Source: Candidatus Saccharimonadota bacterium
GTDB lineage: Bacteria > Patescibacteriota > Gracilibacteria > BD1-5 > UBA6164
Direction of reading: 5' to 3'
Length of the DNA: 32,000 nt
Assembly: GCA_965229705.1 (NCBI GenBank)
Contig: OZ245922.1
Location: 60,001-92,000, forward strand
Shown: positions 1,097 through 32,000 of the stretch, one piece after another
How the letters are laid out: each line of letters opens with the position of its first letter
Position numbering within the stretch: position 1 is the stretch's first letter
Translations under genes and position numbers: made by a program
Notes under the pieces: generated by a model
Told to the model about the DNA's origin: nothing
The model's input: only the letters and a program-made list of their open reading frames with translations
The model's database searches: none

Positions 1097-1192
1097 AGTC
1101 GTATTTAAGAGGATATTTTGTAAAAGTATATAATAACTTTGAAAAACTGCGAAAAATAATCCAGATTTTTGCACTCAAGGAAAAAGTGTGCT

Positions 1193-7245: not shown

Positions 7246-7333
7246 TAAATATTTTTCTCTGACTATTTTTTGATTCAATACAGAGAATATGATAGTATAT
7301 TGTTATAAATATTATATTATAATATATAAAGCG

Positions 7334-10300
7334 ATGCGAAATATATTTTTGAGAAGCATATACCATTCTTTTGAGAGTTTTATGACTCTTTCATTTGAAG
7401 GAAATAATGATAGAGGAAACGATGCTCAAACGGATAATATTCCTACAGGATCTGATTCTCAAGATACTACTTTTGAGTGAGATCATCGTTCAGAAGCTCC
7501 TGGTGTACTTGCAGAATCAACTGCTCAAAGATGAGATTTGAGAGCAAGTTTAGTGAACCCATCTGAGTGATCATCTACTCCTACACTCTGAAATTCACAA
7601 ATATCAGAACAATCAATAAACTGGGATACGACAGATTTTAATGTGGATGATATGTTTGAGAGCTATGAAGAATTTGCTGATCTCAAGAAAGATATTATAA
7701 AAATGAGTGCAGACTTTCAAAACTATACGCCTGAAGACTTTCAGAGAGCTCAAGAAATTTTAGATCGTGGTTTGGATGAATTGCATGATTTTGCTCAGGT
7801 GTATAACCATGACTTTATTGAAGATCATAAAAATAGTAGTCAAGATAATGATCCAGATAGAAAATATTATAAAGCCATCGTTCTTATTGGTGCAAAGGAC
7901 GAAAGAGGTCTTCCTGCTGAGTTAGCTGAGAATTTACAGAATATGACGGCTAATGAGTTTACTGAACAATATAATCAAAATGACAGAATCTTTATACTTA
8001 ATGCAAACGGTCATAGAGCAGAAGACCTAGAGGTAGGAAGTGAACTTACTATGTATATGTATTTTAATAATGATTATAATGCAAATTTTGAAAATTTGAA
8101 TCTTGGAGACACACTTCCAGATATTGTAGAGGGTATTACTATTCATGATATATGAAATACAGAGTTTACGAGACAAGGTCTTATTTGAGATTTTTATAAT
8201 GTAGACGGTGTTATGGCAAGAGCTACAATGTGAGAAAAAGTCATTATCCTCAGACTTCGTTCTCCACAAAAAGTTCAAGAAATGTATGATGAGATTGACA
8301 AGCAGATAGCTGACCTCCTTGCTGATTATCCAGAATCTCGGCATGAGTATATGCAAGGGATTGTGCGACCTCTCCTTTTGAGAGGTGAAGAGCTGCCAAG
8401 CAAGAGGTTTTTGGCATTTCTCAGTCATGATATAGTGAGAGACTTTTTATGAGGAGAGGATGCTATGCAGAGGAGAATGGCAGAGATCATGGAAGTATAT
8501 AAAAATCAGTCTTTTGATAGAGAGACTGTAGCTAACACTTTTAAATGGATCTTTTCTGATATACAAAAAGAACAAATACAAGAGGCTCTCTGAACAGATG
8601 ATATGAGAATATTAGCTGATATCATTGTTGTATACCAAATGTCAGAGAGTATGACACAAGCTACTTGAGTCTTTTCAGTGAGAGATGTAATTACAAGACT
8701 TACAGAAAAAATGGGAGTTTCTGAAGATATTTTCAAGACAGACGAAGAGTTACTCCGTGAATATCCATATGATATTGGAGAAGCAATCATATATATTGAT
8801 TTTCACTACTCAGAAGATGAAAGAAAAGATTTGCAGAGAGTACTTGGTTTAAATACTTATGACGCGAGTGAAATTGCTCTCGCAGTTGCTCTTTGGCAAA
8901 TCAAAAATAGGGACAACCCAGAGTTTGAGGATATTGCTGTTGATGGAAGACCATGAAGCTTGGAACTTGAGGAGCTTGGTATTACTCGTGAACAAAATGT
9001 TTCATTTAACGAGCAGAAGGCAGCTACATATATATGAAAGCAAAATGTGCAAGAGATAAGAAGACTTTTTCGCGCTAAAGAGACAGATAGTCTTGAGTTC
9101 CTTGCTCTCACGGTTGCTCGTTGGCAGCAAGCAAATGGCGCTTATGTTGATGGAATGCCTGGACCTAATACACTTGGCTCGTTAAGAGAAAACTATCCAG
9201 AATCACTTTTCTCCTCAGATCTATATGCGAAGTATGAAGATATAAATGGTCTAAAAAATCCTTCGATAGAATATAAAGAATCTATCTGGTGGGAAAAAGA
9301 CCCCAGTGCTTACAAAAGTTATAATATTATCGAAGCTGCTAGTTATATTGATGATCTTTCTTCAGATAATATAGAAAAATTGATTACTCTTTTTGATATA
9401 TTAGGAGAAAATATTGGCAGTGAAGCTATTGCTTATTGGATTGCAAAAGCTCAAATAGCGTATAACTCAAATCATCATATAGAGGACTTAGAAGGAGCTC
9501 TAGAGGTTACTGGTATACCCTCAGAGGAAACGCTTCAGGCATTATTTGGAGCAGAGACTCTTGATGAGGTATTTGAAAATAATTCTCAGTGAGAAGCAAT
9601 AAGTCAAATAGAATATAGAAAAGAAGATTATTACAACGAACACCAAGCGAGGTCGTATCTTAAAATGCTTTATACTGACGATCAGATCGGGCTGTTACAG
9701 AATGCATTTTTTCCTTCTAATACTGAAGATAATGATTCTAGTGATTTAGAACAGATTAACAATCTTACATCGGTAATCGCTGATTTCCAATTGCGTATAG
9801 GTTTGATACCTGATGGAAAAATATGACCAGAGACTAGACCACTTGTAGCACAATATTATCCAATTGAAGAATCTCAGTTAGAACCAGTAGATCGAACTAC
9901 TATAGTAGGGAATACTACTTCATCACAAAACAATCTCCTTGAAGGTACATGAGAGCCTGAAATAAACTATGAAGTAGCTATTAATTATATGGAGAAATAT
10001 TTTACAGTAAAGGATTTACGAAAAATTCGTAGTATGCTATGAAATGGTTGGATGAGAAATAGATGAATCGTAAATGCCGTAGCAGAGTATCAAAGAAACA
10101 ATAATATACCCGTAGACGGACTCCTCCGAACAGAATACCTTTTAGCAGGATTACCAAAACCAAATACAAATCCACAAGAAATAGTACAAATACATCCAAA
10201 AGACTTAGATATACAAGAAACAACTCTTTGACAAGAAATAGCGATATCTATTAATTATCATGGTACAATACATAACGCTAATGAGTTTACTTGTGGGATA

Positions 10301-10714
10301 AATGTTTGAACTGAGCTCATTGCAAATGGCTTTGAAAATATGCCTAGATCAAGGAGACATGGATATAGATGGGAAGAGATTTTAAGAGATAGGCCAGACC
10401 AGTTTCTCGATGTAACACACCTCTACACTCCATCCACAGCTCCTCCATGATCGGTTATATCTTATGATAAAAATACATGATGATCACAGCAGCGTCAAGA
10501 TTATGGTCATGTAGAGATAGCTCTTGGAGATATTGGAAAAGGTAAAAGATGATATTACTTTGGTCCGATTGAAAATAGACCAGGTTGAAGTAACCCAAAT
10601 TTTGAAGAAGGAACTTATAGTATATTTCTTCCGATTTCCAAGAAGATTCCAACGACGCCTTTACAGATAGCTCAAAATATTTTAACACCAAGTGATGTAG
10701 GGACTTTGGATTAG
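7334..10714 (+). CDS. Giant (about 1126 aa) peptidoglycan-binding / CHAP-like cell-wall hydrolase
   Basis: Track fragments 7289, 7643, 8678 and 9047 share one frame, and every line to TAG 10712-10714 was checked. Four PG_binding_1-like repeats: LAVALWQIKNRDNPEFEDIAVDGRPG; LTVARWQQANGAYVDGMPGPNTLGSL; IADFQLRIGLIPDGKIGPETRPLV; AVAEYQRNNNIPVDGLLRTEYL. C-terminal CHAP-like domain: EFTCGINVGTELIANGF...YGHVEIALGDIG. The start could be 7289, 7334 or 7382. Confidence 0.75.
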
Positions 10715-17825: not shown

Positions 17826-19829
17826 ATGGACAGAAAAAACATTCGAAACTTTTGTATCATTGCACATATTGATCATGGGAAATCAACGCTTGCAGATAGA
17901 CTCTTGGAGATCACTGGAACAATAGAAAAGCGTGATATGAAACATGGGCAAATGCTTGATACTATGGAGCTTGAACAAGAAAGAGGAATCACAATAAAAT
18001 TGCAACCTGTTCGCATGCTCTGGAAAGATCATGAACTCAATATTATAGATACTCCAGGTCATGTAGATTTTCAGTATGAGGTTTCTCGGAGCCTGGCATC
18101 TGTAGAGGGAGCACTACTGGTGGTAGATGCTACACAAGGGATAGAAGCGCAAACACTTTCAAATGTGTATCTTGCTATAGAAAATGAGCTACAGATTATC
18201 CCCGTTATCAACAAGATAGATCTTCCAGCTGCAGATGTGGAGAGAGTCAGTGAGGAAATCATCAGTTTACTTGGGTGTTCTTGAGAAGATATTATTCCTG
18301 TCTCTGCAAAAACATGAGAAAATGTAGACGCTATTTTAGATGCAGTTTTGAAGAGAGTCCCAGAACCAAAAGTGTATGTTTCTGAGTCTTTACCACCAAA
18401 AAAAGAGGAGAGTATAACAGTAGATCAGCAGGAGTTGAAGGCTCTGGTCTTTGATAGTCAGTATGATTCATATAGGGGAGTCGTATCTTATGTAAAAGTA
18501 TTTTCTGGAGAAATCCAAAAATGAGATATACTCCATTTTCTCAATACTGGAAAAAAGATAGAAGCCTTGGATGTATGATATTTTTCTCCTCAGTATGAAA
18601 GTAGTAAAAAAATTGATAATGGCTCTATAGGATATGTCGTAACAGGCCTAAAATCCATTCGTGATGCACAAGTATGAGATACTCTCTGGAAACCTGAAAA
18701 TGTGCAGTGACCAAAAGCAAAACTCGAAGAGGCGAGTTCTATTGAATGATTTAAAACGGTAACACCATTTATATATGCGGGAGTTTTCCCGATGGCAACA
18801 GATGAGTATCCACAGCTTGCTGATGCGATGGAACGACTGATGTTGAATGATTCGGCTCTTACAAAAGAATCAGAGGCGTCAGCCGCTCTTGGGCAGGGAT
18901 TTCGTTGTGGATTCCTTGGGTTATTACATCTGGATATTGTAAAAGAGCGTCTTTTCAGAGAGTTTGATATGGATGTTATCATGACTTCTCCGCAGGTAAC
19001 TTATAAAATGCGTATGTATGGGGACAAGACCTCAGAGTTTTCACGGCTATCACCAGAACTTGGTATAAGTCTTGTTCCTAGTAGTAAATATAGCACATTA
19101 TCTTGACCAGCATCTTTTTCTGAGCATTCCTCATCCTCAAGAAGCCTCGAAAATTCTGAGGAGAGTTCTTGTAAGTATACATTTCTCTCGATATCAAATC
19201 CTGAGGATATGCCTCCAAGAGAAACGGTTGACGCGATTTTTGAGCCAGTTGCAAAGATTGAGATTATTAGCCCTACAGAATATGTAGGAACACTTATGCA
19301 GTTATGCCAGGAAAGAAGGGGAGTATTTAAAAATCAGCAATTTATTGATAATTCACGAGTGATGCTCAGTTATGAACTTCCTATGAACGAGCTTATTGGT
19401 GACTTCTATGATGAGATGAAGTCTCTTTCAAGTGGGTATGCGTCTTTGCATTATGAGTTTCTTGAGTACCGAGAAGATGATCTGGTAAAGCTTGATATAT
19501 TGATAGCAGGAGAGAGAGTCTCGGCGCTTTCTTTAATGTGTCATCGTAATCAGGCGAGGTATATCTGAGGTAAGATCGTCAAAAACTTAAAAGAAGTCGT
19601 TCCTCGAGCTCAGTTTGCTATTGCTTTGCAGGCGGCTATTGGAAGCAGTGTTGTTGCTCGTGAGACACTTTCGGCATTTCGAAAAGATGTGACAGGACAT
19701 TTGTATGGTGGAGATGTCAGCAGAAAGAAGAAGCTTCTTGAAAAGCAAAAAAAAGGGAAAAAGAAGATGAAACAGTTTGGAAAAGTGAGTCTTCCAAGTG
19801 AAGCTTTTGTAAATTTGTTAAAGAAATAG
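17826..19829 (+). CDS. lepA: Elongation factor 4 (LepA), 667 aa
   Basis: Fragments 17826, 18792, 19209 and 19626 share one frame. [18 protein letters not shown]; DTPGHVDF; NKIDLPAA; VSAKTGENV, whose G is the TGA at 18315-18317; [22 protein letters not shown]. The C-terminus [27 protein letters not shown] is typical of LepA. Confidence 0.95.
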
Positions 19830-21849: not shown

Positions 21850-21927
21850 GGTGCTCGTAGTTCAGTTGGTTAGAATGCCAGATTGTGACTCTGGAGGTCG
21901 AGGGTTCAAGTCCCTTCGAGCACCCCA
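21850..21927 (+). tRNA. tRNA-His: tRNA-His (anticodon GTG) with G-1 and encoded CCA
   Basis: g-gtgctcg ta gttc agttggttaga at gccag attGTGac tctgg aggtc gaggg ttcaagt ccctt cgagcac c cca. The 7-bp acceptor stem pairs perfectly. The extra 5' G opposite discriminator C is the bacterial tRNA-His hallmark. T-loop ttcaagt. Confidence 0.9.
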
Positions 21928-23393
21928 TTTGAAAAATTTAAAATTCTGATGATTTCAAACAGCTCATTTTCCTGAATATAGAGCTGTTTTTTAGTGTCTA
22001 CAAAAAGTTCAAGGACAATCATTTCAATGATTTCTATTTTTTTATTCAAATCACCGTTTTTCCACGCAGTAGAGAGGTTTAAGAGGAGTTCGACTGATTT
22101 CTCTACAGCCATCAAAATTTCATCATTTATATACAAAATTCACTCCAATTCTCTCGTATATTTTAAACTTTCATCAAGATATTTTTTTCGTTGTTTATCA
22201 AAATCCTCCTGAGAAATTTTATCTTCACATAGTAGATTCAGTAAATTCTGCTGTTTTCCATTGATTCATCATAATTTAGAGTTTATTGACTGAAATTGAG
22301 ATTTAGCTTCTTTGTACTGTTCCGAAAAGAAGTTATGCAAGAGAGTTCGCACATCTCTTAGGGTGTCTTCGTCTATTATTATATAGCTTCATAGAGTTTT
22401 CTCAAACGCCTCAAGTATTATTTTTTGGTTAATATTCACATTGATTCCATCGCAGGTATCTTTGTTCGAAGAACGGTAGTAAATATTTCATTTTTTCTCG
22501 TATGCTCTAAAAGGCGTTTTTTTGCCCCAGTTTCATTTTATTATTCATTTGAGTGGGAATTTATCCTGTTCAACACTTTCGAAGCTCTTATGTTCTCTTT
22601 TTACTCGAATTTGGTTTATATATTCTGTGCTTACTATCAATTTATGATTATGTTGGAAAACTCTTCCTGCAAAATCATAGAATCCATCATGAAATTTATG
22701 AAAAAGCCATCTTCTCACTTGTTCTGCAGTTACAGGCGTGTTATTCTTTGTTGTGACTCAGTATTTATCGAACATTATTTGAGCTGTTTCTTTGTAAGAG
22801 GTTCACTTTTTGAGTATTCCAAGCATTTTTCTCCACTTCCACTCGTTATCTGGATGAGGGCGTACATCAGTTTCTCATTTTCTGATACGATAATTTTCAT
22901 ATCAGAAAGGAACTTTGTTCATTACTTTAAATTTATTTTCTGCAGCGTGAAGCATTTTTTTCTTCGTGTCTTCTGCTCTGTCTTTGTTTTCTTTTTTCCC
23001 GAGCATTAAAAAAAGTTCAAGACTGAGAACATCTCAAGAATTGTTTGACCTATATAGTTTATCTCAAATATAGACTCACTTTGCAAGTCATTCTTCAAGA
23101 ATCATTATTATTGCAGCCGTATCTCAAGTATTCCTTGAGAGTCTTTTTTCGTCATCAATTATGATAAAATCTACTTTTGAATCTTTTACTAGTTCAATAA
23201 GTTGTTTGAATCATGTTCTCTTTCAGGTATTTTTTATACTAGCACTATGACTTTCTGTGATTTCTTCAATTACACTTAAATCGTTCCTGTCAGCGATTTT
23301 TCGACAGGATTCAATTTGATACTCAAGAGAATTTGTTTGCTTATCATCTCTGTTTGTAGACTTTCTGCAATATATTACTGCGCGATTACTCAT
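21870..23393 (-). CDS. Large serine recombinase / integrase (507 aa to the TAA; 495 aa to the TGA at 21908-21906)
   Basis: MSNRAVIYCRKSTNRDDKQTNSLEYQIESCRKIADRNDL...VDFIIIDDEKRLSRN is the resolvase catalytic domain (YcR.St...Q..SLe.Q, catalytic Ser in RKST). It is followed by a recombinase domain (VPFGYENY...) and a long coiled-coil tail. About 20 TGAs are in frame. The last codons are the reverse complement of tRNA-His positions 21870-21927. Confidence 0.85.
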
Positions 23394-23413
23394 AATAAAA
23401 ATATACCTAGTTA

Positions 23414-24199
23414 CTAATTACACAGACTTCTATCTACATAAGTCTTATTCCCGTTACTATTCCAATAATAACACCCACCACGAGGTCATGTATAGTAAGT
23501 CTTATATCCACTAGTATTTGATTTGTAATACTCATATTCTTCCTCCTCTTCATAATCCTCCCAAATACCCCTTTCGAACCTAATAGCGTTCTCCTCATAT
23601 GTTTGAAACTCCTTTTGGTATTTATAGGCTTTGTTATATGTGTACTCTTCGGCATATCAGCTATTCACCATGTCTCAGTTTATATTTTCTTCTTCAAGAA
23701 AGATATAAGCTAAAACTCTGTCATATCTATCATACATTCATTGTGACTCATCAAACTCTATACTTACTTCTTTTCAGAGTATTTTTTCCGAGAGATATTC
23801 GCTTGCTTCACTATATCAAGCCTCTCATCTTTCGGGAGTATCTATACCAATCATTCTTACAGTAATTATTTCATCTCATTTTTGGTATTTTATCGTATCC
23901 CCATCAACGACATCTACTACAAGAAACTTTGTAGGATCGGGCAGTGTAGTTATTTCGTCTATATAAGATACCAGCATATAAAATAATGCGTATTCTCGAG
24001 AATCACTAGGAAGCAGAGACATATACCACTCTAAAGCAGTTTTCATTGATTCTAACTCCTCAGGATCTTCTTCATATATAACATCTATTTCTTCATATGT
24101 TCCTCGAAGAATCTTATAATCATTCGAGGTAAAATCATATGCAACGGCATGTGATACCATTGAAAAGAACAAGACAAGGGAGATAAGTATATTTTTCAT
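23414..24199 (-). CDS. Secreted thermonuclease (staphylococcal nuclease/SNase-like), 261 aa
   Basis: Track ORF 23876..24199 (signal peptide MKNILISLVLFFSMVSHAVA) runs through a TGA into VVDVVDGDTIKYQKGDEIITVRMIGIDTPERGEAGYSEASEYLSEKILGKEVSIEFDESQGMYDRYDRVLAYIFLEEENINGDMVNSGYAEEY...AIRFERGIW. These are the SNase motifs DGDT, R(l/m).GiD.PE, DrY.R.LAy and GlW. C-terminal tail: YYTGPRGGCYYWNSNGNKTYVDRSLC. TAG stop at 23416-23414. Confidence 0.8.
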
Positions 24200-24208
24200 A
24201 CAGATTTT

Positions 24209-24733
24209 TTAAGGAAATAAAATTTTCATTTTTCTTTCTATGAGTTTTCTTGGTACTCATAATTCAGAGGATAACACAGATACATCATCAGTATCTTTTA
24301 GCTTTTCTCTGAGAAGCGTATCAGGGATAAGCATATCCATTGCAAACTGGTCAGCTCTTTGTTCTATAAAATCACAAAAGCTATTATATCATCTATTTGC
24401 TCGGAGTTTATCATCATGTACTATATGCCCTAGCTCGTGAGCAATAACATATCTCTTGTACTTTGGATAGCTGTTTTCTTTGACGAGTATAAAATCTCGA
24501 CCAAACCTTTTGCAACTGTATCCATAAACTCATTTTGTATGTATTTTTACTTCTTCGAGAACTATTCACATTTGTAAGACAATTTTTTCTATATCCACAA
24601 AATCTCAGTATCCATATTCTTTTAGTATTTCACATGCTTTGGTGTTCATTATTTTTAGAAATATTTTACTATGAAATCTGTTTCGCACGTCCCGCATTTC
24701 TCGAACATATCTATGATTCGGTGCAGATTTCAT
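24209..24733 (-). CDS. ImmA/IrrE-family zinc metallopeptidase (174 aa)
   Basis: KRYVIAHELGHIVHDD (HExxH) ... EQRADQFAMDMLIPDTLLREKL, which is typical of the COG2856/ImmA anti-repressor proteases. ATG at 24733-24731, TAA at 24211-24209. A 9-nt gap separates it from the SNase gene. Confidence 0.8.
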
Positions 24734-24790
24734 TTTTTTTGTTAAAATTACAGTATCTACTAGTTCTTCAAAAGGCTTGTATTATTTCAT

Positions 24791-24823
24791 AGTCAATATA
24801 AAAAATAAATAAATAATTTGCAA
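24791..24823 (-). promoter_or_regulatory. Promoter copy 1 (TTGCAA-N17-TATATT on the minus strand) driving ImmA-SNase-recombinase
   Basis: The 33-bp block agtcaatataaaaaatAaataaataatttgcaa is repeated at 25877-25909 with one mismatch. Read on the minus strand it is TTGCAA attatttatttattttt TATATT gact. Confidence 0.6.
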
Positions 24824-24865
24824 AAAAAATTTGACTTCATTTCTAAAATAATATATTATGTCACT

Positions 24866-24921
24866 ACATCACGACGAAAGGGGAACCGAACGGCTAGTTA
24901 CCTAAGGGCACCCCTTTTTTT
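24866..24921 (+). ncRNA. Candidate small RNA (about 55 nt) between the NYN and ImmA genes, antisense to the NYN 3' UTR
   Basis: Plus-strand TTGACT (24831-24836), a 17-nt spacer, then TATTAT (24854-24859). About 7 nt downstream the sequence runs acatcacgacgaaaGGGGaaccgaacggctagttacctaagggcaCCCCttttttt (7 T at 24915-24921). No ORF. Confidence 0.35.
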
Positions 24922-24926
24922 ATATT

Positions 24927-25433
24927 TTATACCTGTATATATTTATCATATATAATCTTATTTTTTATACTATCATGTGATAAATTTGATCAGTATTGAT
25001 AGCTTATTTTATTATAGAGAGATGAATATTTATTATTTGGAAATAAAATTTTTTCAAGTCTTCATTTTTTTCGTATCCATTCTACTGTTTTTATGTAGTC
25101 TCAATCTCATGATACGAGCACAACTTTATAAAAGCTGTCCTCTTGTATTCTCTTCATTATCTCAAATACTATATCAGTATCTACATTTCATTTCTTGTTT
25201 CATATTTGAGATTTTCGATGTTCTCTAAAAATTACTATGTATCAAGCCTCTTGTAAATCACTATATAAATCTTCATTTTGGTCTTGTACACATCAAAGGA
25301 AGTAAAAAGCTTTTTGAATTTTATACTTTTCTTGTAGATAGATTCTAAATTTGTATATATCTACCTTCCAACCCTCACTCTTTGTTCAGTAGTGAAGGTT
25401 TTGACCATCTATGAATGCATAATTACTACTCAT
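24927..25433 (-). CDS. NYN/LabA-like (PIN-fold) ribonuclease domain protein (168 aa)
   Basis: MSSNYAFIDGQNLHYG...KGNVDTDIVFEIM...FYKVVLVSGDGDYIKTVEWIRKKGRLEKILFPNNKYSSLY. These are the NYN signature acidic residues (iDg.N, vD.di, lvSGD.Df, G..v). The ATG at 25433 is 1 nt after the Xre TAG. TAA at 24929-24927. Confidence 0.7.
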
Positions 25434-25434
25434 C

Positions 25435-25836
25435 CTACCTATCCTTATATTTCAAAGTAACCATATCAAGAAGATTCTTTGCTTCTCTATATGCTTCTTC
25501 ATTTGGAAACTCCTGTTTTAGAGCAAAATCAAACTCTATTTCTTCGGAGTTAGAAATTGATTGTCAGGTTGTGTGTTCGTATTCTGCTTCGCGGGCATCA
25601 TTAAATATTTTTTCAAATTCTGATGAGGATATTCAGAGTGCTTTAGCAATACTTTTCCATCTTTCATTGGATGCTACCTGACGACCGTTAAACATATTTG
25701 TTAGATACGATTGAGAAACTCATACTATACCGCTCAAATTTTCGTATGTAATTGATTTTTCGGATCTTATATAGTTTAGTTTCTTTCAGAGATATTTATT
25801 AAAAAATCCCTTATCAAAGCTATCATCTACCGCCAT
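25435..25836 (-). CDS. Xre/cI-family HTH transcriptional repressor (133 aa)
   Basis: GKKLNYIRSEKSITYENLSGIVGVSQSYLTNMFNGRQVASNERWKSIAKALGIS is an HTH_3 pattern (lk.iR......t.e.La...gvs.s.ls..e.G......ia.aLgv). Acidic C-terminal tail. It is divergent from the rightward early genes. Confidence 0.8.
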
Positions 25837-25876
25837 TATAACTAAAAAACATATAAATATAAGCTGATTATATTAA

Positions 25877-25932
25877 AGTCAATATAAAAAATCAATAAAT
25901 AATTTGCAATAGTTAGTATTTTAACATATAAT
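25877..25932. promoter_or_regulatory. Back-to-back divergent promoters sharing one palindromic -35 hexamer (switch region)
   Basis: Minus strand: TTGCAA (25909-25904), N17, TATATT (25886-25881), towards the Xre gene. Plus strand: the same TTGCAA (25904-25909, its own reverse complement), N17, TATAAT (25927-25932), towards the early genes. The 33-bp block 25877-25909 duplicates 24791-24823. Confidence 0.55.
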
Positions 25933-26133
25933 ACTTGCGTAACTTAGAGATAAGTATTGCTCATTAACATACAAAACTACCAAATAGTAATATAAGTAGT
26001 AGCAATATTGGGATTGGCTGAATTGAAGCGATCAGTAATATGTTAGTGATAATATATATATTATCCATATTGCTTAATTTTTACTATAAATTATATGTAA
26101 TATACATATAAAACTTAAAACAAAACCTAAAAA

Positions 26134-26301
26134 ATGAGAACTTACAAAACAAGAAAAAATCCACTCACGCTACTCCCTGTAGAAAGAAATATGACAAAAC
26201 AAGAGGTAAAGCAGTGATTGATAGATTTTTTCAATGACCCGGATGAGATATTTGAACTAGCCCATCTTGTGGCAATAGTAAATATCAGAAATAGTTTCTA
26301 A
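26134..26301 (+). CDS. Small hypothetical early protein (55 aa)
   Basis: First ORF downstream of the rightward promoter: MRTYKTRKNPLTLLPVERNMTKQEVKQGLIDFFNDPDEIFELAHLVAIVNIRNSF. One TGA. Followed by a hairpin terminator. Confidence 0.3.
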
Positions 26302-26364
26302 CATTTATTGTAAAGAACTATGTGAGAGATACTAACGACAATTTTACATAACCCGTTTTTTACA

Positions 26365-26390
26365 TCAGGGTTTATTGCCCTGACTTTTTA
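26365..26390 (+). terminator. Hairpin plus T-tract (putative intrinsic terminator/attenuator)
   Basis: TCAGGG tttattg CCCTGA cttttta. Confidence 0.4.
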
Positions 26391-26407
26391 TTTCATTACG
26401 AAGGAAT

Positions 26408-26602
26408 ATGAAACAACACCTAAAAGATGTACTCGACCAAATAGAAGGTTGGAGTTATGACGACATCGACCAGCTTGTATATGAATTACAAGGTATACAG
26501 ATCGAAATGATGGGGGGTGAAAAATCTTTCCCAGAAATTGATTACAAGTTTGAAAATCCTCTTAAACAATTACAAAAACTAACATGAGTGACCACGAATT
26601 AG
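26408..26602 (+). CDS. Small acidic hypothetical protein (64 aa)
   Basis: MKQHLKDVLDQIEGWSYDDIDQLVYELQGIQIEMMGGEKSFPEIDYKFENPLKQLQKLTGVTTN. Codon-by-codon check from ATG 26408 to TAG 26600-26602. Confidence 0.35.
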
Positions 26603-26740
26603 AATGCTGATATGATGAATATCAATGATATTATTGAGAGCTTATACAGCCTCTTGAAATTCTTCATGCTGAAACAAGCACAGCTTGGGAAATACAAAAG
26701 CTCCTAGATATAGGAGCTAAGTAAAAGCCCCCCGACAGAG

Positions 26741-26780
26741 AAAGACTTTCCTGTGATTATAGGAAAGTCTTTTATTATTT
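26741..26780 (+). terminator. Strong rho-independent terminator
   Basis: AAAGACTTTCCT gtgattat AGGAAAGTCTTT tattatttc: a 12-bp perfect stem with an 8-nt loop and a T-rich tail. Confidence 0.75.
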
Positions 26781-26795
26781 CAATAAATTTTTTTT

Positions 26796-27371
26796 ATGAT
26801 ACAACAAAAACTACTAGAAATACAGAGAAGGAGTATTGCTCTAAAAAAAGATGCTGATAATCCTTTTTTCAAGAGTAAGTATATCACTCTCGATGCAATT
26901 ATATCTCAATATAATCCTATACTTACAGAGCTTCGTATTGTAGCTTATCATCATACAAAGGATAATAAACTTATTACTGTACTATATGATACTGAAAATA
27001 AGACACAGGTTGAATCTGAGTTCAATATATACAATACTGACCCGCAAAAACAAGGAAGTGAAGTTACATATTGAAAGAGATATAATTTATGACAACTTCT
27101 TAATATCCAAACTGATACTGACGATGACGGAAACCTTGCGAGTTCTTCGGGGAATACAAAGGAATATTATCCAAAATCTCAACAGAAGAATTGGCTGAAT
27201 TATGAATCTGCTCTTGAAATCATAAAAGCTGGAAACGATACTCCCGAATCTTTCTGAAAAATTGTAAAAGAAGATGGATATGACTTATCAAGCTATGCTA
27301 AGAAAGCTATAGCTGACTTTTTCAATACTTGAGAACTCAAGAAAAACTTATTTTTTAAACAAGCAAGATAA
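26796..27371 (+). CDS. ERF-family single-strand annealing recombinase (191 aa)
   Basis: KDADNPFFKSKYITLDAIISQYNPILTELRI...QKQGSEVTYGKRYNLGQLLNIQTDTDDDGN matches the ERF pattern (NPfF.SkYa.L..i, gS..TY.rRY.L, dDDdg). The track ORF 26796..27074 continues through TGAs to TAA 27369-27371. Confidence 0.7.
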
Positions 27372-27372
27372 T

Positions 27373-27786
27373 ATGAACGAAATATTAAAAGCAAAACACT
27401 TACAAGCTGTGCAATCCCTTGAGGAAGTAGTTGAGGGAGTTTTAAGCGGAGAGATTTCTCCTGTACAAGCATACTCAGTTATGAAGGACTTTAAAAAAAG
27501 TATGGATGATTCTTTGAAGTTTATTGAGACTCAAGTTATTTCTCAAATTGAAGCAGATCCAAATGAGTATCCTGAGTTCAGAATCTCTACTCGAAAGACA
27601 CTACAGTATAAAGATAATCCTTTGTATGCTGAAAAGCAAAAAGAACTCAAAGAAATAGAGTCTCAAATAAAAATTGCTACAGAAATGCACGAAAAGGGAG
27701 ATTCTTATGTAGATAGTGATGGAGTAATCATCGATCCTGTAGAGATAAAATTTACTCAGGTTCTTACATATACTCCTAAGAAGTAA
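27373..27786 (+). CDS. Hypothetical phage protein (137 aa), possibly Gp157-like by position next to ERF
   Basis: Intact ORF without TGA and with a true TAA stop. Helical, acidic. The assignment rests only on synteny with ERF, as in many siphoviruses. Confidence 0.4.
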   Translation: MNEILKAKHLQAVQSLEEVVEGVLSGEISPVQAYSVMKDFKKSMDDSLKFIETQVISQIEADPNEYPEFRISTRKTLQYKDNPLYAEKQKELKEIESQIKIATEMHEKGDSYVDSDGVIIDPVEIKFTQVLTYTPKK

Positions 27787-27885
27787 ATGAACCGAGTATG
27801 TGCCTGGTGCTGAAAAGTACTGGAAGAATGAGAGTGAGAAATATCTCATTGAATTTGTGAATCTTGTTTAGAGATTCATTTTTAG
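27787..27885 (+). CDS. 32-aa zinc-ribbon micro-protein
   Basis: MNRVCAWCGKVLEEGEGEISHGICESCLEIHF. It has CxxCG and HGICxxC knuckles. Four of the 32 codons are TGA, two of them supplying the knuckle glycines. Confidence 0.45.
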
Positions 27886-27888
27886 TTT

Positions 27889-27913
27889 AGGGGCTTTAAG
27901 CCCCTTTAATTTT
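27889..27913 (+). terminator. Hairpin terminator
   Basis: AGGGGCTT t AAGCCCCT ttaatttt. Confidence 0.55.
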
Positions 27914-28234
27914 ACACCTATGAAAAATAAAACAATCAAGTTCCAAGAAAGAACTTCTCGAAGAGGGTATCTCGTACCTGGTAGTAAAAAAATGTTTACT
28001 ACAAAACGAGATATGCAACTCAACACTATAGAGACCAATCTTATATTTCGTAATATTGATAAAAATGCATAGATGAAAAATTACAAAAATCATGTATTTG
28101 AACAAATTTACGGAGTGAAAAACTATAAAAGAAATCAAACAACAATTAAAAAAATCTTGTCATTACTGAACTTTCTTATCACTAGATACAGCAAGAATAG
28201 GTAGTGGTTTTTTAACTCCTACAGAAATGGATAT

Positions 28235-28648
28235 ATGATAGGAAACATACAAGAATGAATCCTGTTCTTGAAAAAACTTTCTCCCGATAATATCGTAAAA
28301 ATAACAGAGATTAGAGAGAATCGTTCACAGAGGCAAAATAGACTCTATCATCAATGGTTAAAAGATATACAGGTTTGTTTTGAAGAACAGGGTATATTTA
28401 TCACACACGATGAACTCCATGAGTGATTAAGAGATAAACTTATACCATGAAGTTATGAGATAAATCCTCTCACTTCAAGAACAATACATAAGAAAAAATC
28501 TACGACACAGCTCAATAAAAAGGAATTTTCAAAATACATACACGACTGCGAAAAATATCTCATAGACAGGTTTGAAATAAGCTATCCGCTTCCTGTAGAT
28601 ATTTTTTACACAAAAAAAAGAACCACCGACCAAAGTAATTCTTTTTAA
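28235..28648 (+). CDS. NinB/Orf-like recombination mediator (putative), 137 aa
   Basis: ENRSQRQNRLYHQWLKDIQVCFEEQGIFITHDELHEGLRDKLIPGSYE resembles the NinB pattern (R(S/T)..QN...(H/W)..L.DI......G.......W/H). ATG 28235, TAA 28646-28648. Confidence 0.4.
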
Positions 28649-28809
28649 ATGCCCTCAATGGGCTTTTATTCTCTGCCTTGTATAAATAATTTATACCAAA
28701 ACATATATTCATTATATGTATATATTTATATAAAGCAAATTTATTTTATATTGTAAAATATACTATTATGAAAAATACTTGATATATAGAAAATTTGAGT
28801 CAAGAATAA

Positions 28810-29085
28810 ATGATACTAGAACTGCTAGTGAAACAAAAATATGTCACACTTCCTGAGATACGGAGACTGTGAATTGCTTGTCATACTGCGAGGATTACAG
28901 GACTAAGGAAAAAGTGACATATTATTTTTAATACTGTGAAATATAAGAGGAAACTGTCTGGAAGAATGGTGGCGCATTCGGTGTATTTTTATTGAGGAAA
29001 CAGATTTGAGAAGAGACCTCTTTATAAGAAAGAGCAGTGATTTTTTGAGAAAATCAAAAATAAAATATTTGGTAAAAAACAATAA
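28810..29085 (+). CDS. Winged-helix/HTH DNA-binding protein (91 aa)
   Basis: KYVTLPEIRRLGIACHTARITGLRKKGHIIFNTV follows the ...G....ARI.eLRkkG..I.t pattern of small phage HTH proteins. Basic C-terminus. Confidence 0.4.
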
Positions 29086-29330
29086 TGGATAACACAAAAA
29101 TACTTCAATGGCTTAATAACGAAACAAACTGGCGAAGATTTACAGGAATATGTTTGAGTAGTCATGTTATAAAAAGGTTGAGAGAATATAAGTCTCGAGG
29201 AATGCTACCTTGAAAAACGATATTGTATAAGTTTATACAGGATTATAAGTTGTTAGAGAATGATACAAGAGATGATAGAGAAATTGCTATAGATTTATTA
29301 GCTTTAGTTGATAAAGATTTTACTTCATAG
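29085..29330 (+). CDS. Hypothetical protein (81 aa)
   Basis: The start overlaps the previous stop (TAATG). MDNTKILQWLNNETNWRRFTGICLSSHVIKRLREYKSRGMLPGKTILYKFI.... TAG at 29328-29330. Confidence 0.35.
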
Positions 29331-29333
29331 ATT

Positions 29334-29441
29334 CTTAAGGAAACTCTGAGAAACTCCTTCTTTCTCTATTTTTCCAAAGGAGAGATGGCTCGATAGAGCC
29401 AAAGAGGATTAGAAATTTTTTGTTTTTCATAGATTCCTTAA
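29334..29441. repeat. MITE/REP-like repeat, type A core, inverted orientation, located inside the mobile element
   Basis: cttaaggaaactctgagaaa ctccttctttctctatttttccaaaggagagatggctcgatagagccaaagaggattagaaatttttt ...tcatagattccttaa. This is the reverse complement of the A1/A3 core. Confidence 0.8.
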
Positions 29442-29485
29442 AAAAATAAGGAAAGCACAACTATATTTAATAATAAATCCTATCA

Positions 29486-30259
29486 ATGAAGTACAACGGA
29501 AATATAAACTATATCAAGTGCCTAGAATTTGGATTAAATCTGAGTCAATGAGCTGTAATGGATTTGATGACTCATTTATCGACTTGGGCTGAATGAAAAG
29601 ATATAGATGGGGAGATATACTACTATCTTTCAACACAAAAAATGACACAAGAACTACCACTTATTTCTGAGAATAAAAATACTTTTTTGAAGATATTGAA
29701 AAACCTCAAAGAAAAGGAACTCATTGAGCATAAAATATATTGGAATAAATGATATTATAAACTCTCAGAAAAGTGAAAAACTTTTGTATCAAAAATATTC
29801 TCTGCAGATATTCAAGGTGTGGAAAAAAATCCATACAAGTGTGGAAAAAAATCCACACTAGGTGTGGAAAATTTTCCACACAATAATAATACTAGTAATA
29901 ATAACACTAATATAAATAATAACTCTAAAGAGTTATTACAGCAAAATGCTGAATCTGAAAAAAATTTTTGAGATGAGAATATAAATATGCTTTTGTCATT
30001 TTTGTATCAGACGATTGGTATAGACCAGTTTAAAGAATCACAAAAACTTGAGAGAATGTATGCTCGGCATCTTATAAATTGGATCAAGAAACATGGAAAA
30101 GAACAGTTTGTGTCTCGCGCTGGCCAGATTTTGTCTGATGATTTCAAATCCAAGAACTGTAACAGCATAAAATATTTTTATAACGAGCTGAAAAGTTTTA
30201 TTCATACTCCAGGAATTACGAAAAAACCACGAAACAATAACAATGTAACTTTTTGATAA
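29486..30259 (+). CDS. Putative replication initiator / replisome organiser (257 aa) carrying its own origin
   Basis: The N-terminal winged-helix-like region (YIKCLEFGLNLSQGAVMDLMTHLSTWAEGKDIDGEIYYYLSTQKMTQELPLISENKNTFLKILKNLKEKELIE) resembles phage replisome-organiser N-domains. The central low-complexity linker is encoded by the iterons plus an AT-rich tract. C-terminal helical domain. TGA then TAA at 30254-30259. Confidence 0.45.
29817..29881 (+). repeat. Three 20-bp iterons (putative ori) inside the initiator gene
   Basis: GTGTGGAAAAAAATCCATAC (29817-29836), GTGTGGAAAAAAATCCACAC (29839-29858) and GTGTGGAAAATTTTCCACAC (29862-29881, a perfect 20-bp palindrome). Spacing is 22-23 bp. Immediately followed by the AT-rich tract caataataatactagtaataataacactaatataaataataac. 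Confidence 0.7.
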
Positions 30260-30738
30260 TGAACACAGAACTAAAAAAACATACTCCGATGATGGTAGTA
30301 GAAGTTGCTTTTTGATCAGAAAAAGAGTTTTTGTACTGGGAATGAACAAAAGAGCAGTTTCGCGAAAAACTCCAATCAACCTATATAAATTTTCCTTTGT
30401 ATTCCAATAGAGATGTTCTGCGTCAGAAAATAAAAGATTACTGGGTATTGGACTCAAAAGATGAGATATCTCTAGAGATGAGACTCTCGAGTCTGACTAT
30501 GACGCAAAAGACACAGGTCAAAGAATACATCTCACGAATGCAAAAGAATATTGGGAGATATCCCACACAGAAAGAAATAGAATCAATGATACAAAAGGCT
30601 CTATGAATCACTCAAGAGGAAGAACACCGCAAAGATTTTAGTAGTCTTGAGAGATTTAAAACGAGTCTTGTTATCAAAAGACAGAGGATAGCGAAAATCA
30701 TTACTTGAACCTTTCTTTGATTTCGAAGAGTATGATAG
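30259..30738 (+). CDS. Hypothetical protein (159 aa)
   Basis: ATG overlaps the initiator stop (TAATG). It incorporates track ORF 30397..30606. TAG at 30736-30738. No motif recognised. Confidence 0.4.
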
Positions 30739-30793
30739 CAATCAGCCCTTTGAGAGGTAACAAATGCATAGTATTTTCTAAAAATAAGTCACT

Positions 30794-31225
30794 ATGAAAA
30801 AAGAAGAATACATAGAGGGAGACATTCTTGATTGGCTGAAAATGCACTGAGTGGAGTGTTATAAGAACGACATCAAAGGTTACTACAACGAAAAGAAGTG
30901 ATACTACCAAAAAAATAAAAGTAATTATATCCGAAGATGAATATCAGATATAACTGCAATTATTGAGGGGAGATATATCGCGATAGAAGTAAAAAAACCA
31001 AGTGAGATGAAGTTTTTTGATAAATCTCTCCAGGAACTAAAAAAAAATCTCGAAGAGGCATATACTCGAAATATCTCTGAGAGTACCATTAAAAAATATA
31101 TCCACGCTGTGGAGCAAAGAGGCTTTCTTGATGATATTATAGCAAGCGGTGGAATCTGATTTTTTACTCAGTCTATAAAACAAACTCAAGAAAGACTTGA
31201 GGAAAATTGATATATTATTTCTTAA
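30794..31225 (+). CDS. VRR-NUC / PD-(D/E)xK nuclease (143 aa)
   Basis: RRGISDITAIIEGRYIAIEVKKPSE follows the G.(P/S)D...... ....(I/V)E(V/L)K core of VRR-NUC, followed by ...QRGFLDDIIASGGIGFF. Confidence 0.5.
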
Positions 31226-31238
31226 TTTTAAAAAAATT

Positions 31239-31493
31239 ATGCAAAACACGAAAAAAATACTAATAAGTGCATGAATTGTACTTATTTTGATAATCACTAA
31301 CGTGATTACACTGTATGCTATCAGTCCAAGTGAAATAGAAAAGAGTAAAAAAATAAGATTACTCAATCGGGATACGATAGAAAATCTCGAAAAAATGATA
31401 ACTGCATTTCAGGAACAAGTACAAGAACTTGAACAAGAAAATGCTAGTCGGAGGGAATTTGAGTGTAGTATCAATCCCGAATGTGCAAAATAA
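31239..31493 (+). CDS. Small type-II membrane protein with coiled coil (84 aa), holin/spanin-like by context
   Basis: MQNTKKILISAGIVLILIITNVITLYAI is a single TM segment. It is followed by ENLEKMITAFQEQVQELEQENASRREFEC. Extends track ORF 31287..31493 upstream through a TGA. Confidence 0.45.
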
Positions 31494-31537
31494 AAGCTCC
31501 GAAATCTGAGCGTAAACTAAGACAATCGGATCTGGAC

Positions 31538-31834
31538 ATGGATAAACTAGCTTATGCAGTAGCAATGGCAGAGACAAAGGATTGTACTCTTTGATATGGA
31601 AAGACTCATAATAACTGTTTTTGAATCAAACATTGAAATACCGTTCCTTGTCCTGGAGTAGCAAAGTTATCTATGTGTAGATTTGAATCAAAAGAAGCCT
31701 CGTATGAGGCTTTTAAAATTATTTGGGGTACTTGGTACAAAGATTATCCAAACTACACTCTTGCTCATAAATGGACTTGATGAGACAGGGTCTGAAACTG
31801 GATGAATACGGTAAATTATTTTTATAATTTTTAA
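31538..31834 (+). CDS. Putative cell-wall hydrolase with glucosaminidase (FlgJ/LytD-like) motif (98 aa; start may be further upstream)
   Basis: AYAVAMAETKDCTLGYGKTHNNCFGIKHGN resembles A.a.lE(S/T)g.g.s.....NN.FGIK of mannosyl-glycoprotein endo-beta-N-acetylglucosaminidase domains. Six TGAs. TAA at 31832-31834. Confidence 0.4.
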
Positions 31835-31838
31835 GTTT

Positions 31839-32000
31839 ATGAAAACAATAAAAATTGCTTTTGATGTAGACGGAACTCTGATAAGCAATGAGTTTTGAGA
31901 TAATGATATAATACCAAATAAGCGTATTGTAGAAATGTTGAAGACTTTTTACAGCTTCAAAAATGTGAAAATATATGTTTGGAGCGGTAGAGGGGAAAAG
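31839..32000 (+). CDS. HAD-superfamily hydrolase, 5' partial (runs off the window)
   Basis: MKTIKIAFDVDGTLISNEFGDNDIIPNKRIVEMLKTFYSFKNVKIYVWSGRGEK contains HAD motif I, (F)DxDGTL. Confidence 0.5.

What the first reader, a model, noticed from the sequence alone, without database searches (positions are those of the whole stretch)
21870..32000. The temperate element uses the host's UGA = Gly code throughout
Element genes are as TGA-rich as the chromosomal ones. The recombinase has about 20 in-frame TGAs. SNase, ImmA, NYN, ERF, the NinB-like protein, the initiator, VRR-NUC and the lysin-like gene all need TGA = Gly to be intact.

In the 32-aa zinc-ribbon peptide (27787..27885) four codons are TGA, and two give the canonical knuckle glycines (CAWC-G, H-G-ICESC).

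The element is therefore code-locked to code-25 hosts. None of its genes, including early and regulatory ones, would be expressible in standard-code bacteria. This contrasts with phages that deliberately differ in code from their hosts. It bears on the host range and horizontal-transfer barriers of these lineages.
Basis: partly seen in the sequence, partly recalled or inferred. Interest (0 to 1): 0.65.

Follow-up and report, generated by a model that had tools for sequence, protein, structure and literature searches.

The report
Prophage written in host's UGA-glycine code
A phage-like element integrated at a tRNA-His gene of a Gracilibacteria genome reads UGA as glycine in nearly all its genes, as its host does; this is real, but it has already been reported for prophages of these bacteria.

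Summary
From 21870 to the window end, 16 of 17 ORFs carry in-frame TGA (86 in 2,743 codons; 19 in the recombinase). Pfam domains run across the TGAs.

TGA means Gly, not Trp. Five of seven Pfam matches score G > X > W. Standard-code homologues have Gly opposite the recombinase TGAs. In orthologues from related prophages TGA swaps with GGN 11 times and with TGG never.

The host is a Gracilibacterium that uses the same code. The element uses TGA more than the host genes in the window: 56% against 34% of Gly codons.

It belongs to a family of temperate elements found in other TGA-recoded genomes. They share a cI-like HTH, ImmA, a nuclease cargo gene in some, and a serine recombinase whose 3' end runs antisense into a tRNA gene. 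All are TGA-dense and none shows a suppressor tRNA.

Liu et al. [quoted passage not shown] Borges et al. say the same of code-25 phages.

One unexplained lead: a sublineage of this recombinase, still TGA=Gly and under purifying selection, sits among standard-code genes on two "Arenicella sp." MAG contigs; a third assembly, with no organism assigned, shows the same junction.

The parts
21851..21927 (+). tRNA-His(GTG), the integration target. Its 3' 58 nt are overlapped antisense by the recombinase ORF.
   Evidence: ARAGORN; Rfam tRNA 68.8 bits
21870..23393 (-). Serine recombinase (integrase), 507 aa, 19 in-frame TGA
   Evidence: PF00239 Resolvase 63.9 bits; PF07508 17.4 bits, below its cut-off. 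PDB relatives 3g13, 3guv and TP901-1 integrase 3bvp. Family alignment.
21957..21992 (.). 9-bp inverted repeat AAACAGCTC/GAGCTGTTT inside the recombinase codons for KKQLYIQENELFE. On the tRNA strand it is a hairpin followed by a T-run. The DNA is near-identical in all family members found.
   Evidence: The fold is modest: -13.1 kcal/mol, z = -1.5.
23414..24199 (-). Staphylococcal-nuclease-like protein whose N-terminus looks like a signal peptide by eye (no predictor run), 8 TGA. Cargo gene next to the recombinase.
   Evidence: PF00565 70.2 bits. The same position holds an SNase in L033 and an Endonuclease_1 gene two genes upstream in L034.
24209..24733 (-). ImmA/IrrE-type metallopeptidase, 5 TGA
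   Evidence: PF06114 56.3 bits. Orthologues in L008, L013 and L027.
24927..25433 (-). NYN-domain nuclease, 9 TGA (82% of its Gly codons)
   Evidence: PF01936 62.6 bits with G against 38.8 with W
25435..25836 (-). cI-like HTH_3 repressor, 4 TGA.
   Evidence: PF01381 35.5 bits. Orthologues in L027, L013 and L008.
26796..27371 (+). ERF single-strand annealing protein, 4 TGA
   Evidence: PF04404 60.5 bits; phrog_2324 9.5e-27
27373..27786 (+). 137-aa ORF, the only element gene without any TGA
   Evidence: No family match.
27787..27885 (+). 32-aa CxxC...CxxC ORF. All four Gly codons are TGA.
   Evidence: Sequence. No homologue found, so it is unverified as a gene.
28235..28648 (+). NinB/Orf recombination mediator, 3 TGA
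   Evidence: phrog_72 3e-14
28810..29330 (+). Two small ORFs (91 aa with 4 TGA; 81 aa with 1 TGA)
   Evidence: The 81-aa ORF has orthologues in L008 and L013
29486..30259 (+). 257-aa phage protein (putative replication/initiator), 6 TGA
   Evidence: phrog_25527 5.2e-26. 53% identical orthologue in prophage L027, with all 5 aligned TGAs conserved.
30253..30738 (+). 161-aa ORF, 6 TGA
   Evidence: 44% identical orthologue in L008
30794..31225 (+).
   Evidence: phrog_93 'endonuclease' 3.7e-10. No Pfam VRR_NUC match.
31481..31834 (+). 117-aa protein with a weak glucosaminidase-like match, 6 TGA
   Evidence: PF01832 23.3 bits, below the 30.2 cut-off
31836..32000 (+). Start of a HAD-like ORF, cut by the window end, 1 TGA
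   Evidence: PF08282 E=0.008

Best explanation
Positions 21870-32000 are the left 10 kb of a temperate phage-like element. A serine recombinase integrated it into the 3' end of tRNA-His of a Gracilibacteria (genetic code 25) chromosome.

The visible part holds a lysogeny module on the minus strand: cI-like HTH, NYN, ImmA, SNase and recombinase. On the plus strand lie early recombination and replication genes: ERF, NinB/Orf, a 257-aa replication-type protein and an endonuclease.

The element carries no decoding machinery of its own in the visible part. It is translated by the host's apparatus, in which UGA is a glycine codon, and has drifted to using TGA for more than half of its glycines.

Shown: in-frame TGA in 16 of 17 ORFs; TGA = Gly; the same code in the host; membership of a family of prophages found in other TGA-recoded genomes.

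Inferred: that it is a complete, inducible phage, since structural genes lie beyond the window. Also inferred is that the heavy TGA use simply reflects mutation bias and adaptation to a host in which TGA is an ordinary AT-rich Gly codon.
For: - ORF structure: table 11 gives 22% cover and TGA-sense 79%.
- Domain matches span the TGAs.
- G > X > W Pfam scores in 5 of 7 families, with summed G minus W of about 62 bits.
- Standard-code homologues have Gly opposite the TGAs.
- Orthologue codon table: TGA swaps with GGN 11 times and with TGG 0 times.
- Host code: 5 of 7 LepA TGAs lie on conserved Gly. The named LepA relatives are Candidatus Gracilibacteria, at 70-81% identity.
- Phage nature: ERF, NinB/Orf, endonuclease and phrog_25527; HTH, ImmA and recombinase module.
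- Related prophages L008, L009, L013, L027, L028, L033 and L034 lie next to host genes in TGA-recoded contigs. They carry terminase-like, holin and amidase genes that are also TGA-dense.
- The only tRNA in the window is tRNA-His.
- Published precedent: PMC10746230 and bioRxiv 10.1101/2021.08.26.457843.
Against: - No structural, packaging or clear lysis gene lies within the window, and the right end (attR) was not found. No tRNA-His fragment of 12 nt or more recurs in the window. A satellite or a decayed prophage therefore cannot be excluded.
- The rest of the element could not be fetched, so a suppressor tRNA or release factor further on is not excluded for this element.
- ERF and Resolvase Pfam scores do not favour G over X.
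- The element's TGA use differs significantly from the neighbouring host genes. Related prophages show no consistent direction: fraction 0.62-0.83 in prophage against 0.53-0.91 in host. The excess here may only reflect which host genes happen to lie in the window; conserved LepA and RecG use little TGA.
Confidence: 0.9

Rival explanations
1. TGA is read as tryptophan (code 4, as in Mycoplasma and Spiroplasma and in the code-4 phages), not glycine.
For: The protein database itself stores these genes translated with W at every TGA. ERF scores 1 bit higher with W than with G.
Against: - W gives the lowest Pfam score in 6 of 7 families.
- Standard-code homologues have W in 1 of 53 cells against G in 17 of 53.
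- TGA never exchanges with TGG between orthologues, but exchanges with GGN 11 times.
- With W the proteins would be 3-5% Trp and 1-2% Gly.
- Host LepA TGAs lie on invariant Gly.
Confidence: 0.02
2. The TGAs are real stops: the region is a decayed, pseudogenised prophage remnant in a standard-code genome.
For: Under table 11 the region looks like rubble, with 22% ORF cover.
Against: - Not one TAA or TAG interrupts the 16 long frames, whereas TGA does so 86 times.
- The host housekeeping genes LepA and RecG show the same pattern.
- TGA positions are conserved between orthologues that are only 33-53% identical.
- Recombinase orthologues give dN/dS of 0.05-0.30 when TGA is read as Gly.
Confidence: 0.01
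3. The element is not a complete temperate phage. It is a smaller integrative island or phage satellite, or an inactive remnant, that keeps a phage-type lysogeny and recombination module.
For: Only early and lysogeny genes are visible. The 'lysin-like' match is below threshold. A HAD-like gene begins at 31836. attR was not found.
Against: The related element L027 shares the 257-aa protein (53% identity), HTH, ImmA and recombinase. It continues into ParB-like and terminase-size genes. L009 and L028 carry tail-size, holin and amidase genes upstream of the recombinase.
Confidence: 0.15
4. Sharing the host's code does not confine this family of elements to code-25 hosts. Members also reside in, or repeatedly enter, standard-code Gammaproteobacteria. 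'Code-locked' would then overstate the barrier.
For: - Recombinase relatives at 47-51% identity lie on two 'Arenicella sp.' MAG contigs and one metagenome contig with no organism assigned.
- They carry 7-11 in-frame TGA, show TGA-GGN swaps, and have pN 0.13-0.18 against pS 0.70-0.79.
- Their neighbours are standard-code: about 5,200 codons with no in-frame TGA, some with TGA stops, plus a type I RM system, AlpA, T4CP, relaxase and MobC.
- The recombinase to 113-aa ORF to AlpA junction recurs in three assemblies.
Against: - MAG binning is not proof of host.
- Only 12-21 kb of each contig was seen.
- No tRNA(UCA) is visible, so there is no evidence the genes are expressed there.
- The window's own element sits in a bona fide code-25 genome.
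Confidence: 0.25

Closest known systems
Prophages of Gracilibacteria and Absconditabacteria described by Liu, Jaffe, Chen, Bor and Banfield, mBio 2023 (PMC10746230)
   Same: Integrated in code-25 CPR genomes. ORFs are dense with in-frame TGA and almost unannotatable in code 11. An integrase is present. [quoted passage not shown]
   Different: I could not tell whether this element is one of their 12 Gracilibacteria prophages. They used coding density and did not report TGA use relative to host Gly codons, the tRNA-overlapping serine recombinase family, or relatives in standard-code contigs.
Code-25 phages in Borges et al. (bioRxiv 10.1101/2021.08.26.457843)
   Same: TGA aligns with Gly. About 90% of genes contain in-frame TGA, read as full adaptation to a code-25 host. 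Here the figure is 16 of 17 ORFs (94%).
   Different: Those are gut-metagenome phage genomes assigned to Absconditabacteria. This is an integrated element in a Gracilibacterium.
Garnet and Topaz TAG-recoded prophages in standard-code Prevotella and Oscillospiraceae (same Borges paper)
   Same: Temperate, integrated next to a tRNA, with recoded stop codons.
   Different: Their code differs from the host's, they carry code-switch machinery, and their integrases strongly avoid in-frame stops. Here the code equals the host's and the recombinase is among the most TGA-rich genes (19). The Arenicella-contig relatives break the Garnet/Topaz rule in the opposite way.
Large serine recombinase integrases of temperate phages (TP901-1, phiC31 type)
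   Same: N-terminal resolvase catalytic domain with the YxRxST motif. Weak sequence match to TP901-1 integrase and two conjugative-transposon recombinases. About 500 aa, placed at the prophage end.
   Different: The Recombinase domain is below the Pfam cut-off and no zinc-ribbon domain is detected. The gene's 3' end overlaps the target tRNA antisense. It carries an invariant palindromic segment.

Membership tests
Code-25 prophage of Gracilibacteria/Absconditabacteria (as defined in PMC10746230) | Resides in a genome that itself uses TGA = Gly | tested here: met
   Host ORFs need TGA as sense. LepA TGAs lie on conserved Gly. LepA relatives are named Candidatus Gracilibacteria.
Code-25 prophage of Gracilibacteria/Absconditabacteria (as defined in PMC10746230) | [quoted passage not shown] | tested here: met
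   16 of 17 ORFs; 31.4 TGA per 1000 codons; cover 0.79 against 0.22
Code-25 prophage of Gracilibacteria/Absconditabacteria (as defined in PMC10746230) | TGA stands for glycine, not tryptophan | tested here: met
Code-25 prophage of Gracilibacteria/Absconditabacteria (as defined in PMC10746230) | Canonical phage genes (portal, tail, terminase or integrase) | tested here: inconclusive
   Integrase, ERF, NinB/Orf and phage-family proteins are present. Structural and packaging genes lie outside the window, if they exist. The relative L027 has terminase-size genes.
Code-25 prophage of Gracilibacteria/Absconditabacteria (as defined in PMC10746230) | No own code-switch machinery (suppressor tRNA, release factor, aaRS) | tested here: inconclusive
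   None in the visible 10 kb, nor in about 10 kb each of four related prophages. The remainder of this element could not be fetched.
Large serine recombinase (phage integrase type) | Resolvase catalytic domain with the catalytic serine | tested here: met
   PF00239 63.9 bits, residues 5-153. 'YCRKST' aligns with 'YCRVST' of 3g13.
Large serine recombinase (phage integrase type) | Recombinase domain (PF07508) and zinc-ribbon domain (PF13408) C-terminal to the catalytic domain | tested here: inconclusive
   PF07508 scores 17.4 bits, below the 21.1 cut-off, and is seen only with the G translation. PF13408 is not detected. More distant family members P0007-P0014 do carry PF07508, and P0012 and P0013 also carry PF13408.
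Recoded phage of a standard-code host (Borges model) | Host uses the standard code; the phage carries a suppressor tRNA or release factor; early and integrase genes are free of in-frame stops | tested here: not met
   The host is code 25. The integrase has 19 TGA and the repressor has 4. No tRNA(UCA) was found.

The most novel reading that the evidence does not exclude
Members of this TGA=Gly recombinase and element family are resident in standard-code marine Gammaproteobacteria (Arenicella). There they are either kept functional by an unseen tRNA-Gly(UCA), or they arrive repeatedly from Gracilibacteria that live on those cells. The first would be a code-25 element in a standard-code host with a recoded integrase, the reverse of the published Garnet/Topaz pattern. 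The second would leave a genomic trace of a parasite-host pair and of DNA flow across a genetic-code boundary.
Probability: 0.2. Interest if true: 0.75.

Novelty: new member of a known kind. Interest (0 to 1): 0.25.

Why it matters
For this element, little is new. It is one more case showing that prophages of code-25 CPR bacteria are fully adapted to the host's code, and so cannot express their repressor, integrase or replication genes in ordinary bacteria. Liu et al. 2023 and Borges et al. already drew that conclusion.

Practical points:
- Gene callers and protein databases that use code 11 or code 4 shred or mistranslate these elements. The database used here stores W at every TGA.
- IMG/VR held no close relative, so such phages are under-counted.

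The Arenicella-contig relatives are the part worth pursuing. If they are real, the genetic code is a barrier to expression but not to integration, and these elements could serve as markers of Gracilibacteria-host associations.

Tried and rejected
- **Fetching the rest of the element.** An exact-protein look-up of the TGA-free 137-aa protein and of the database's own copy of the recombinase found nothing on record. The right end, structural genes and any suppressor tRNA stay unseen.
- **IMG/VR.** The single-protein recombinase scan found no relative. The alignment scan found only 20-26% identical recombinases in standard-code contigs. ERF hits at 28-35% are on contigs that mostly do not need recoding. 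An exact DNA pattern for the conserved palindrome found nothing.
- **INPHARED phages.** No DNA similarity to 24001-32000.
- **attR.** No repeat of 12 nt or more of tRNA-His elsewhere in the window.
- **General TGA excess in prophages.** Four related loci gave no consistent direction, so I do not claim a rule.
- **Tandem-island explanation for the Arenicella loci.** I looked for a leftover tRNA fragment at the recombinase tail and found none. Identity of the L012 tRNA-Leu to E. coli (79%) says nothing about the host.
- **The conserved hairpin as a terminator.** The pattern scan does not list it because its loop is 15 nt. Folding is only 1.5 sd below shuffles. It remains an idea.
- **Code 4 and pseudogene readings.** Both rejected; see the rival explanations.

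Full report
**What is in the window**

The window is 35% G+C. Under table 11, ORFs of at least 100 aa cover less than half of it. With TGA read as sense, long frames appear everywhere. Examples are an 851-aa ORF with 27 TGA, a 1141-aa ORF with 24, LepA with 9 and RecG with 5.

A single tRNA, tRNA-His(GTG), lies at 21851-21927. Positions 1-21850 hold chromosomal genes.

From 21870 onward the genes are those of a temperate phage's left arm (Pfam; PHROGs):
- Plus strand: ERF, a 137-aa ORF, a 32-aa CxxC...CxxC ORF, NinB/Orf, small ORFs, a 257-aa phage-family protein, a 161-aa ORF, an endonuclease-like protein, a weak glucosaminidase-like protein and the start of a HAD-like ORF.

**Checking the observation**

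The element ORFs hold 86 in-frame TGA in 2,743 codons. Sixteen of 17 ORFs have at least one, and the recombinase has 19. Only the 137-aa ORF at 27373-27786 has none.

In the 32-aa ORF all four glycine codons are TGA, at codons 9, 15, 17 and 22. I found no homologue for it, so whether it is a gene remains open.

The TGAs are not stops. The Pfam matches to Resolvase, SNase, M78, NYN and ERF run in one frame across several of them. No TAA or TAG interrupts these frames.

**Glycine or tryptophan?**

I used three tests that do not assume the answer.

1. Pfam bit scores with TGA translated as G, X or W:

| Family | G | X | W |
|---|---|---|---|
| SNase | 70.2 | 65.6 | 63.5 |
| M78 | 56.3 | 50.8 | 46.2 |
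| NYN | 62.6 | 49.4 | 38.8 |
| HTH_3 | 35.5 | 26.9 | 24.9 |
| Glucosaminidase | 23.3 | 18.3 | 15.5 |
| Resolvase | 63.9 | 65.5 | 59.0 |
| ERF | 60.5 | 61.5 | 61.5 |

Five families support Gly, none supports Trp over X, and two do not discriminate G from X.

2. The protein search with the recombinase returned 13 relatives. The database translates with code 4: the window's own protein comes back with W at all 19 TGA sites. Ten relatives are 3-5% W and 1-2% G, so they are TGA-recoded too. Three (P0012-P0014) have normal composition. Opposite the 19 query TGAs these three have G in 17 of 53 cells, against a 5.4% background, and W in one.

3. In orthologues of the HTH, ImmA, 257-aa, 161-aa and 81-aa proteins from related prophages, window TGAs align with TGA 23 times, GGN 3 times and TGG never. 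Their TGAs align with window GGN 8 times and TGG never.

The host behaves the same way. Of seven LepA TGAs alignable to solved EF4 structures, five fall on conserved glycines and none on Trp. The nearest named LepA relatives, at 70-81% identity, are all 'Candidatus Gracilibacteria bacterium'. The host is therefore a code-25 Gracilibacterium.

**Density compared with the chromosome**

| | Host (13 genes) | Element |
|---|---|---|
| TGA per 1000 codons | 22.5 | 31.4 |
| TGA as share of Gly codons | 34% | 56% |

Fisher tests give p=0.016 per codon and p=1.3e-6 among Gly codons. The per-gene Mann-Whitney test on the Gly share gives p=0.016.

The element is thus more TGA-rich than its neighbours, not equally so.

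I do not read it as a rule. Host values range from 0.12 (RecG) to 0.71. In four related loci the prophage and host shares differ in no consistent direction.

**Relatives**

Contigs carrying the recoded recombinase relatives are prophages beside housekeeping genes in TGA-recoded, 21-31% G+C genomes: L008, L009, L013, L027, L028, L033 and L034.

They share with the window:
- the HTH-ImmA-recombinase module;
- the 257-aa protein, at 53% identity in L027;
- the 161-aa and 81-aa ORFs;
- in L033 an SNase gene directly before the recombinase, and in L034 an Endonuclease_1 gene two genes upstream of it.

Their late genes are also TGA-dense. A 678-aa tail-size protein has 51 TGA, and holin, amidase and terminase-size genes carry them too.

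None of these loci has a tRNA other than the integration target. IMG/VR and INPHARED hold no close relative.

**Comparison with what is known**

Liu et al. (mBio 2023, PMC10746230) examined 15 Absconditabacteria and 12 Gracilibacteria prophages. [quoted passage not shown] They suggest an advantage akin to codon optimisation.

Borges et al. (bioRxiv 10.1101/2021.08.26.457843) report code-25 phages with about 90% of genes carrying in-frame TGA, 'fully adapted' to code-25 hosts. They contrast these with recoded phages of standard-code hosts, whose integrases avoid in-frame stops.

This element is one more member of that kind.

**Mechanism**

The best-supported account is passive. The element is translated by the host's machinery, in which UGA is decoded as glycine. 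In an AT-rich genome TGA is the most AT-rich Gly codon, one T/G change away from GGA.

No evidence points to a regulatory use of the codon. Early, regulatory and, in relatives, late genes all carry it.

The expression lock follows from the sequence. Under the standard code the repressor would stop at codon 17, the recombinase at codon 57 and NYN at codon 16.

**Seen on the way**

*Recombinase overlap with the target tRNA.* In every code-25 member of the family the recombinase ORF ends antisense inside the target tRNA: His, Cys, Glu or Arg. This explains the variable C-terminal tails.

*An invariant palindrome.* Just upstream, the peptide DTKKQLYIQENELFE and its DNA are almost invariant, even at synonymous sites and even in 21-24% G+C genomes. 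The DNA is a 9-bp inverted repeat which, on the tRNA strand, is followed by a T-run. It could be a terminator supplied for the tRNA, or an att-related site. Neither is tested.

*A sublineage next to standard-code genes.* The scan of reference genomes found the family only on two contigs labelled 'MAG: Arenicella sp.', a gammaproteobacterium. A third assembly, a JGI metagenome contig, shows the same arrangement.
- The recombinases carry 7-11 in-frame TGA at Gly columns, with TGA-GGN swaps between copies. Synonymous sites are saturated but pN is only 0.13-0.18. They have therefore evolved under TGA=Gly and purifying selection.
- A RadC gene, an N6/N4 methylase and an HTH gene beside them are recoded too.
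- The genes on either side are standard-code. About 5,200 codons have no in-frame TGA and some end in TGA stops. They include a type I RM system, AAA_13, AlpA, T4CP, relaxase and MobC.
- A further contig, 100% identical to the flank, stops 67 nt inside the recombinase tail. That is where the relatives have their att junction.
- No tRNA(UCA) is visible.

I cannot decide between true residence in a standard-code host, repeated dead-end entry from a Gracilibacteria donor, and binning or assembly error. The junction recurring in three assemblies argues against a simple chimera.

**Verdict**

- Observation: confirmed.
- Interpretation: supported.
- Novelty: low, a new member of a known kind.
- Interest: 0.25 for the finding as given. 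The Arenicella lead is worth a separate look.

Noticed in passing
window 21851-21927 and 21870-23393; L008 11428-11506; L009 8479-8553; L013 4178-4254; L027 11457-11536; L028 8706-8782; L033 7594-7667; L034 3292-3366: In every code-25 member of this recombinase family, the recombinase ORF's 3' end runs antisense into the tRNA gene at which the element is integrated (His, Cys, Glu or Arg). The variable C-terminal tails are antisense tRNA sequence.
   Followed up: partly
window 21945-21992 (peptide DTKKQLYIQENELFE of the recombinase); same motif in L008-L013, L028, L029: The DNA encoding this peptide is almost identical at synonymous sites across family members with only 27-50% protein identity and 21-38% G+C. 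It forms a 9-bp inverted repeat AAACAGCTC/GAGCTGTTT, followed by a T-run on the tRNA strand. It may be a terminator for the tRNA or an att or recombinase-binding site. The fold z-score is only -1.5.
   Followed up: partly
L010 6198-11572; L011 501-2081 (= L031 19548-21128); L012 1-3137: A sublineage of the same recombinase carries 7-11 in-frame TGA read as Gly and has dN/dS below 0.1. Recoded RadC, methylase and HTH genes lie beside it. It sits between standard-code genes (type I RM, AAA_13, AlpA, T4CP, relaxase, MobC) on two 'Arenicella sp.' MAG contigs and one metagenome contig. This is the opposite of the published rule that recoded prophages in standard-code hosts keep their integrase free of in-frame stops.
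   Followed up: partly
window 23414-24199; L033 5322-6173; L034 1-1104: Nucleases lie on the element side of the recombinase in several family members: an SNase, with an Excalibur domain in L033, directly upstream, and an Endonuclease_1 in L034 two genes upstream. The window SNase has a signal-peptide-like N-terminus by eye. They may be cargo useful to a DNA-scavenging CPR host.
   Followed up: no
window 17826-19829 (LepA), residues about 398-453: The host LepA is 667 aa against about 627 in its relatives. It has a Ser-rich insertion of about 40 aa that does not align to any solved EF4 structure.
   Followed up: no
window 1169-3724 and 7289-10714: Two very large host ORFs (851 and 1141 aa) share a similar C-terminal region (…GHVEIALG…GGSN…). 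They use TGA for about a third of their glycines. They were not annotated here.
   Followed up: no
protein database entries P0001-P0011: The large protein collection stores these Gracilibacteria-type genes translated with code 4, with W at every TGA. This gives proteins of 3-5% Trp and 1-2% Gly. It lowers search sensitivity and could mislead annotation.
   Followed up: yes
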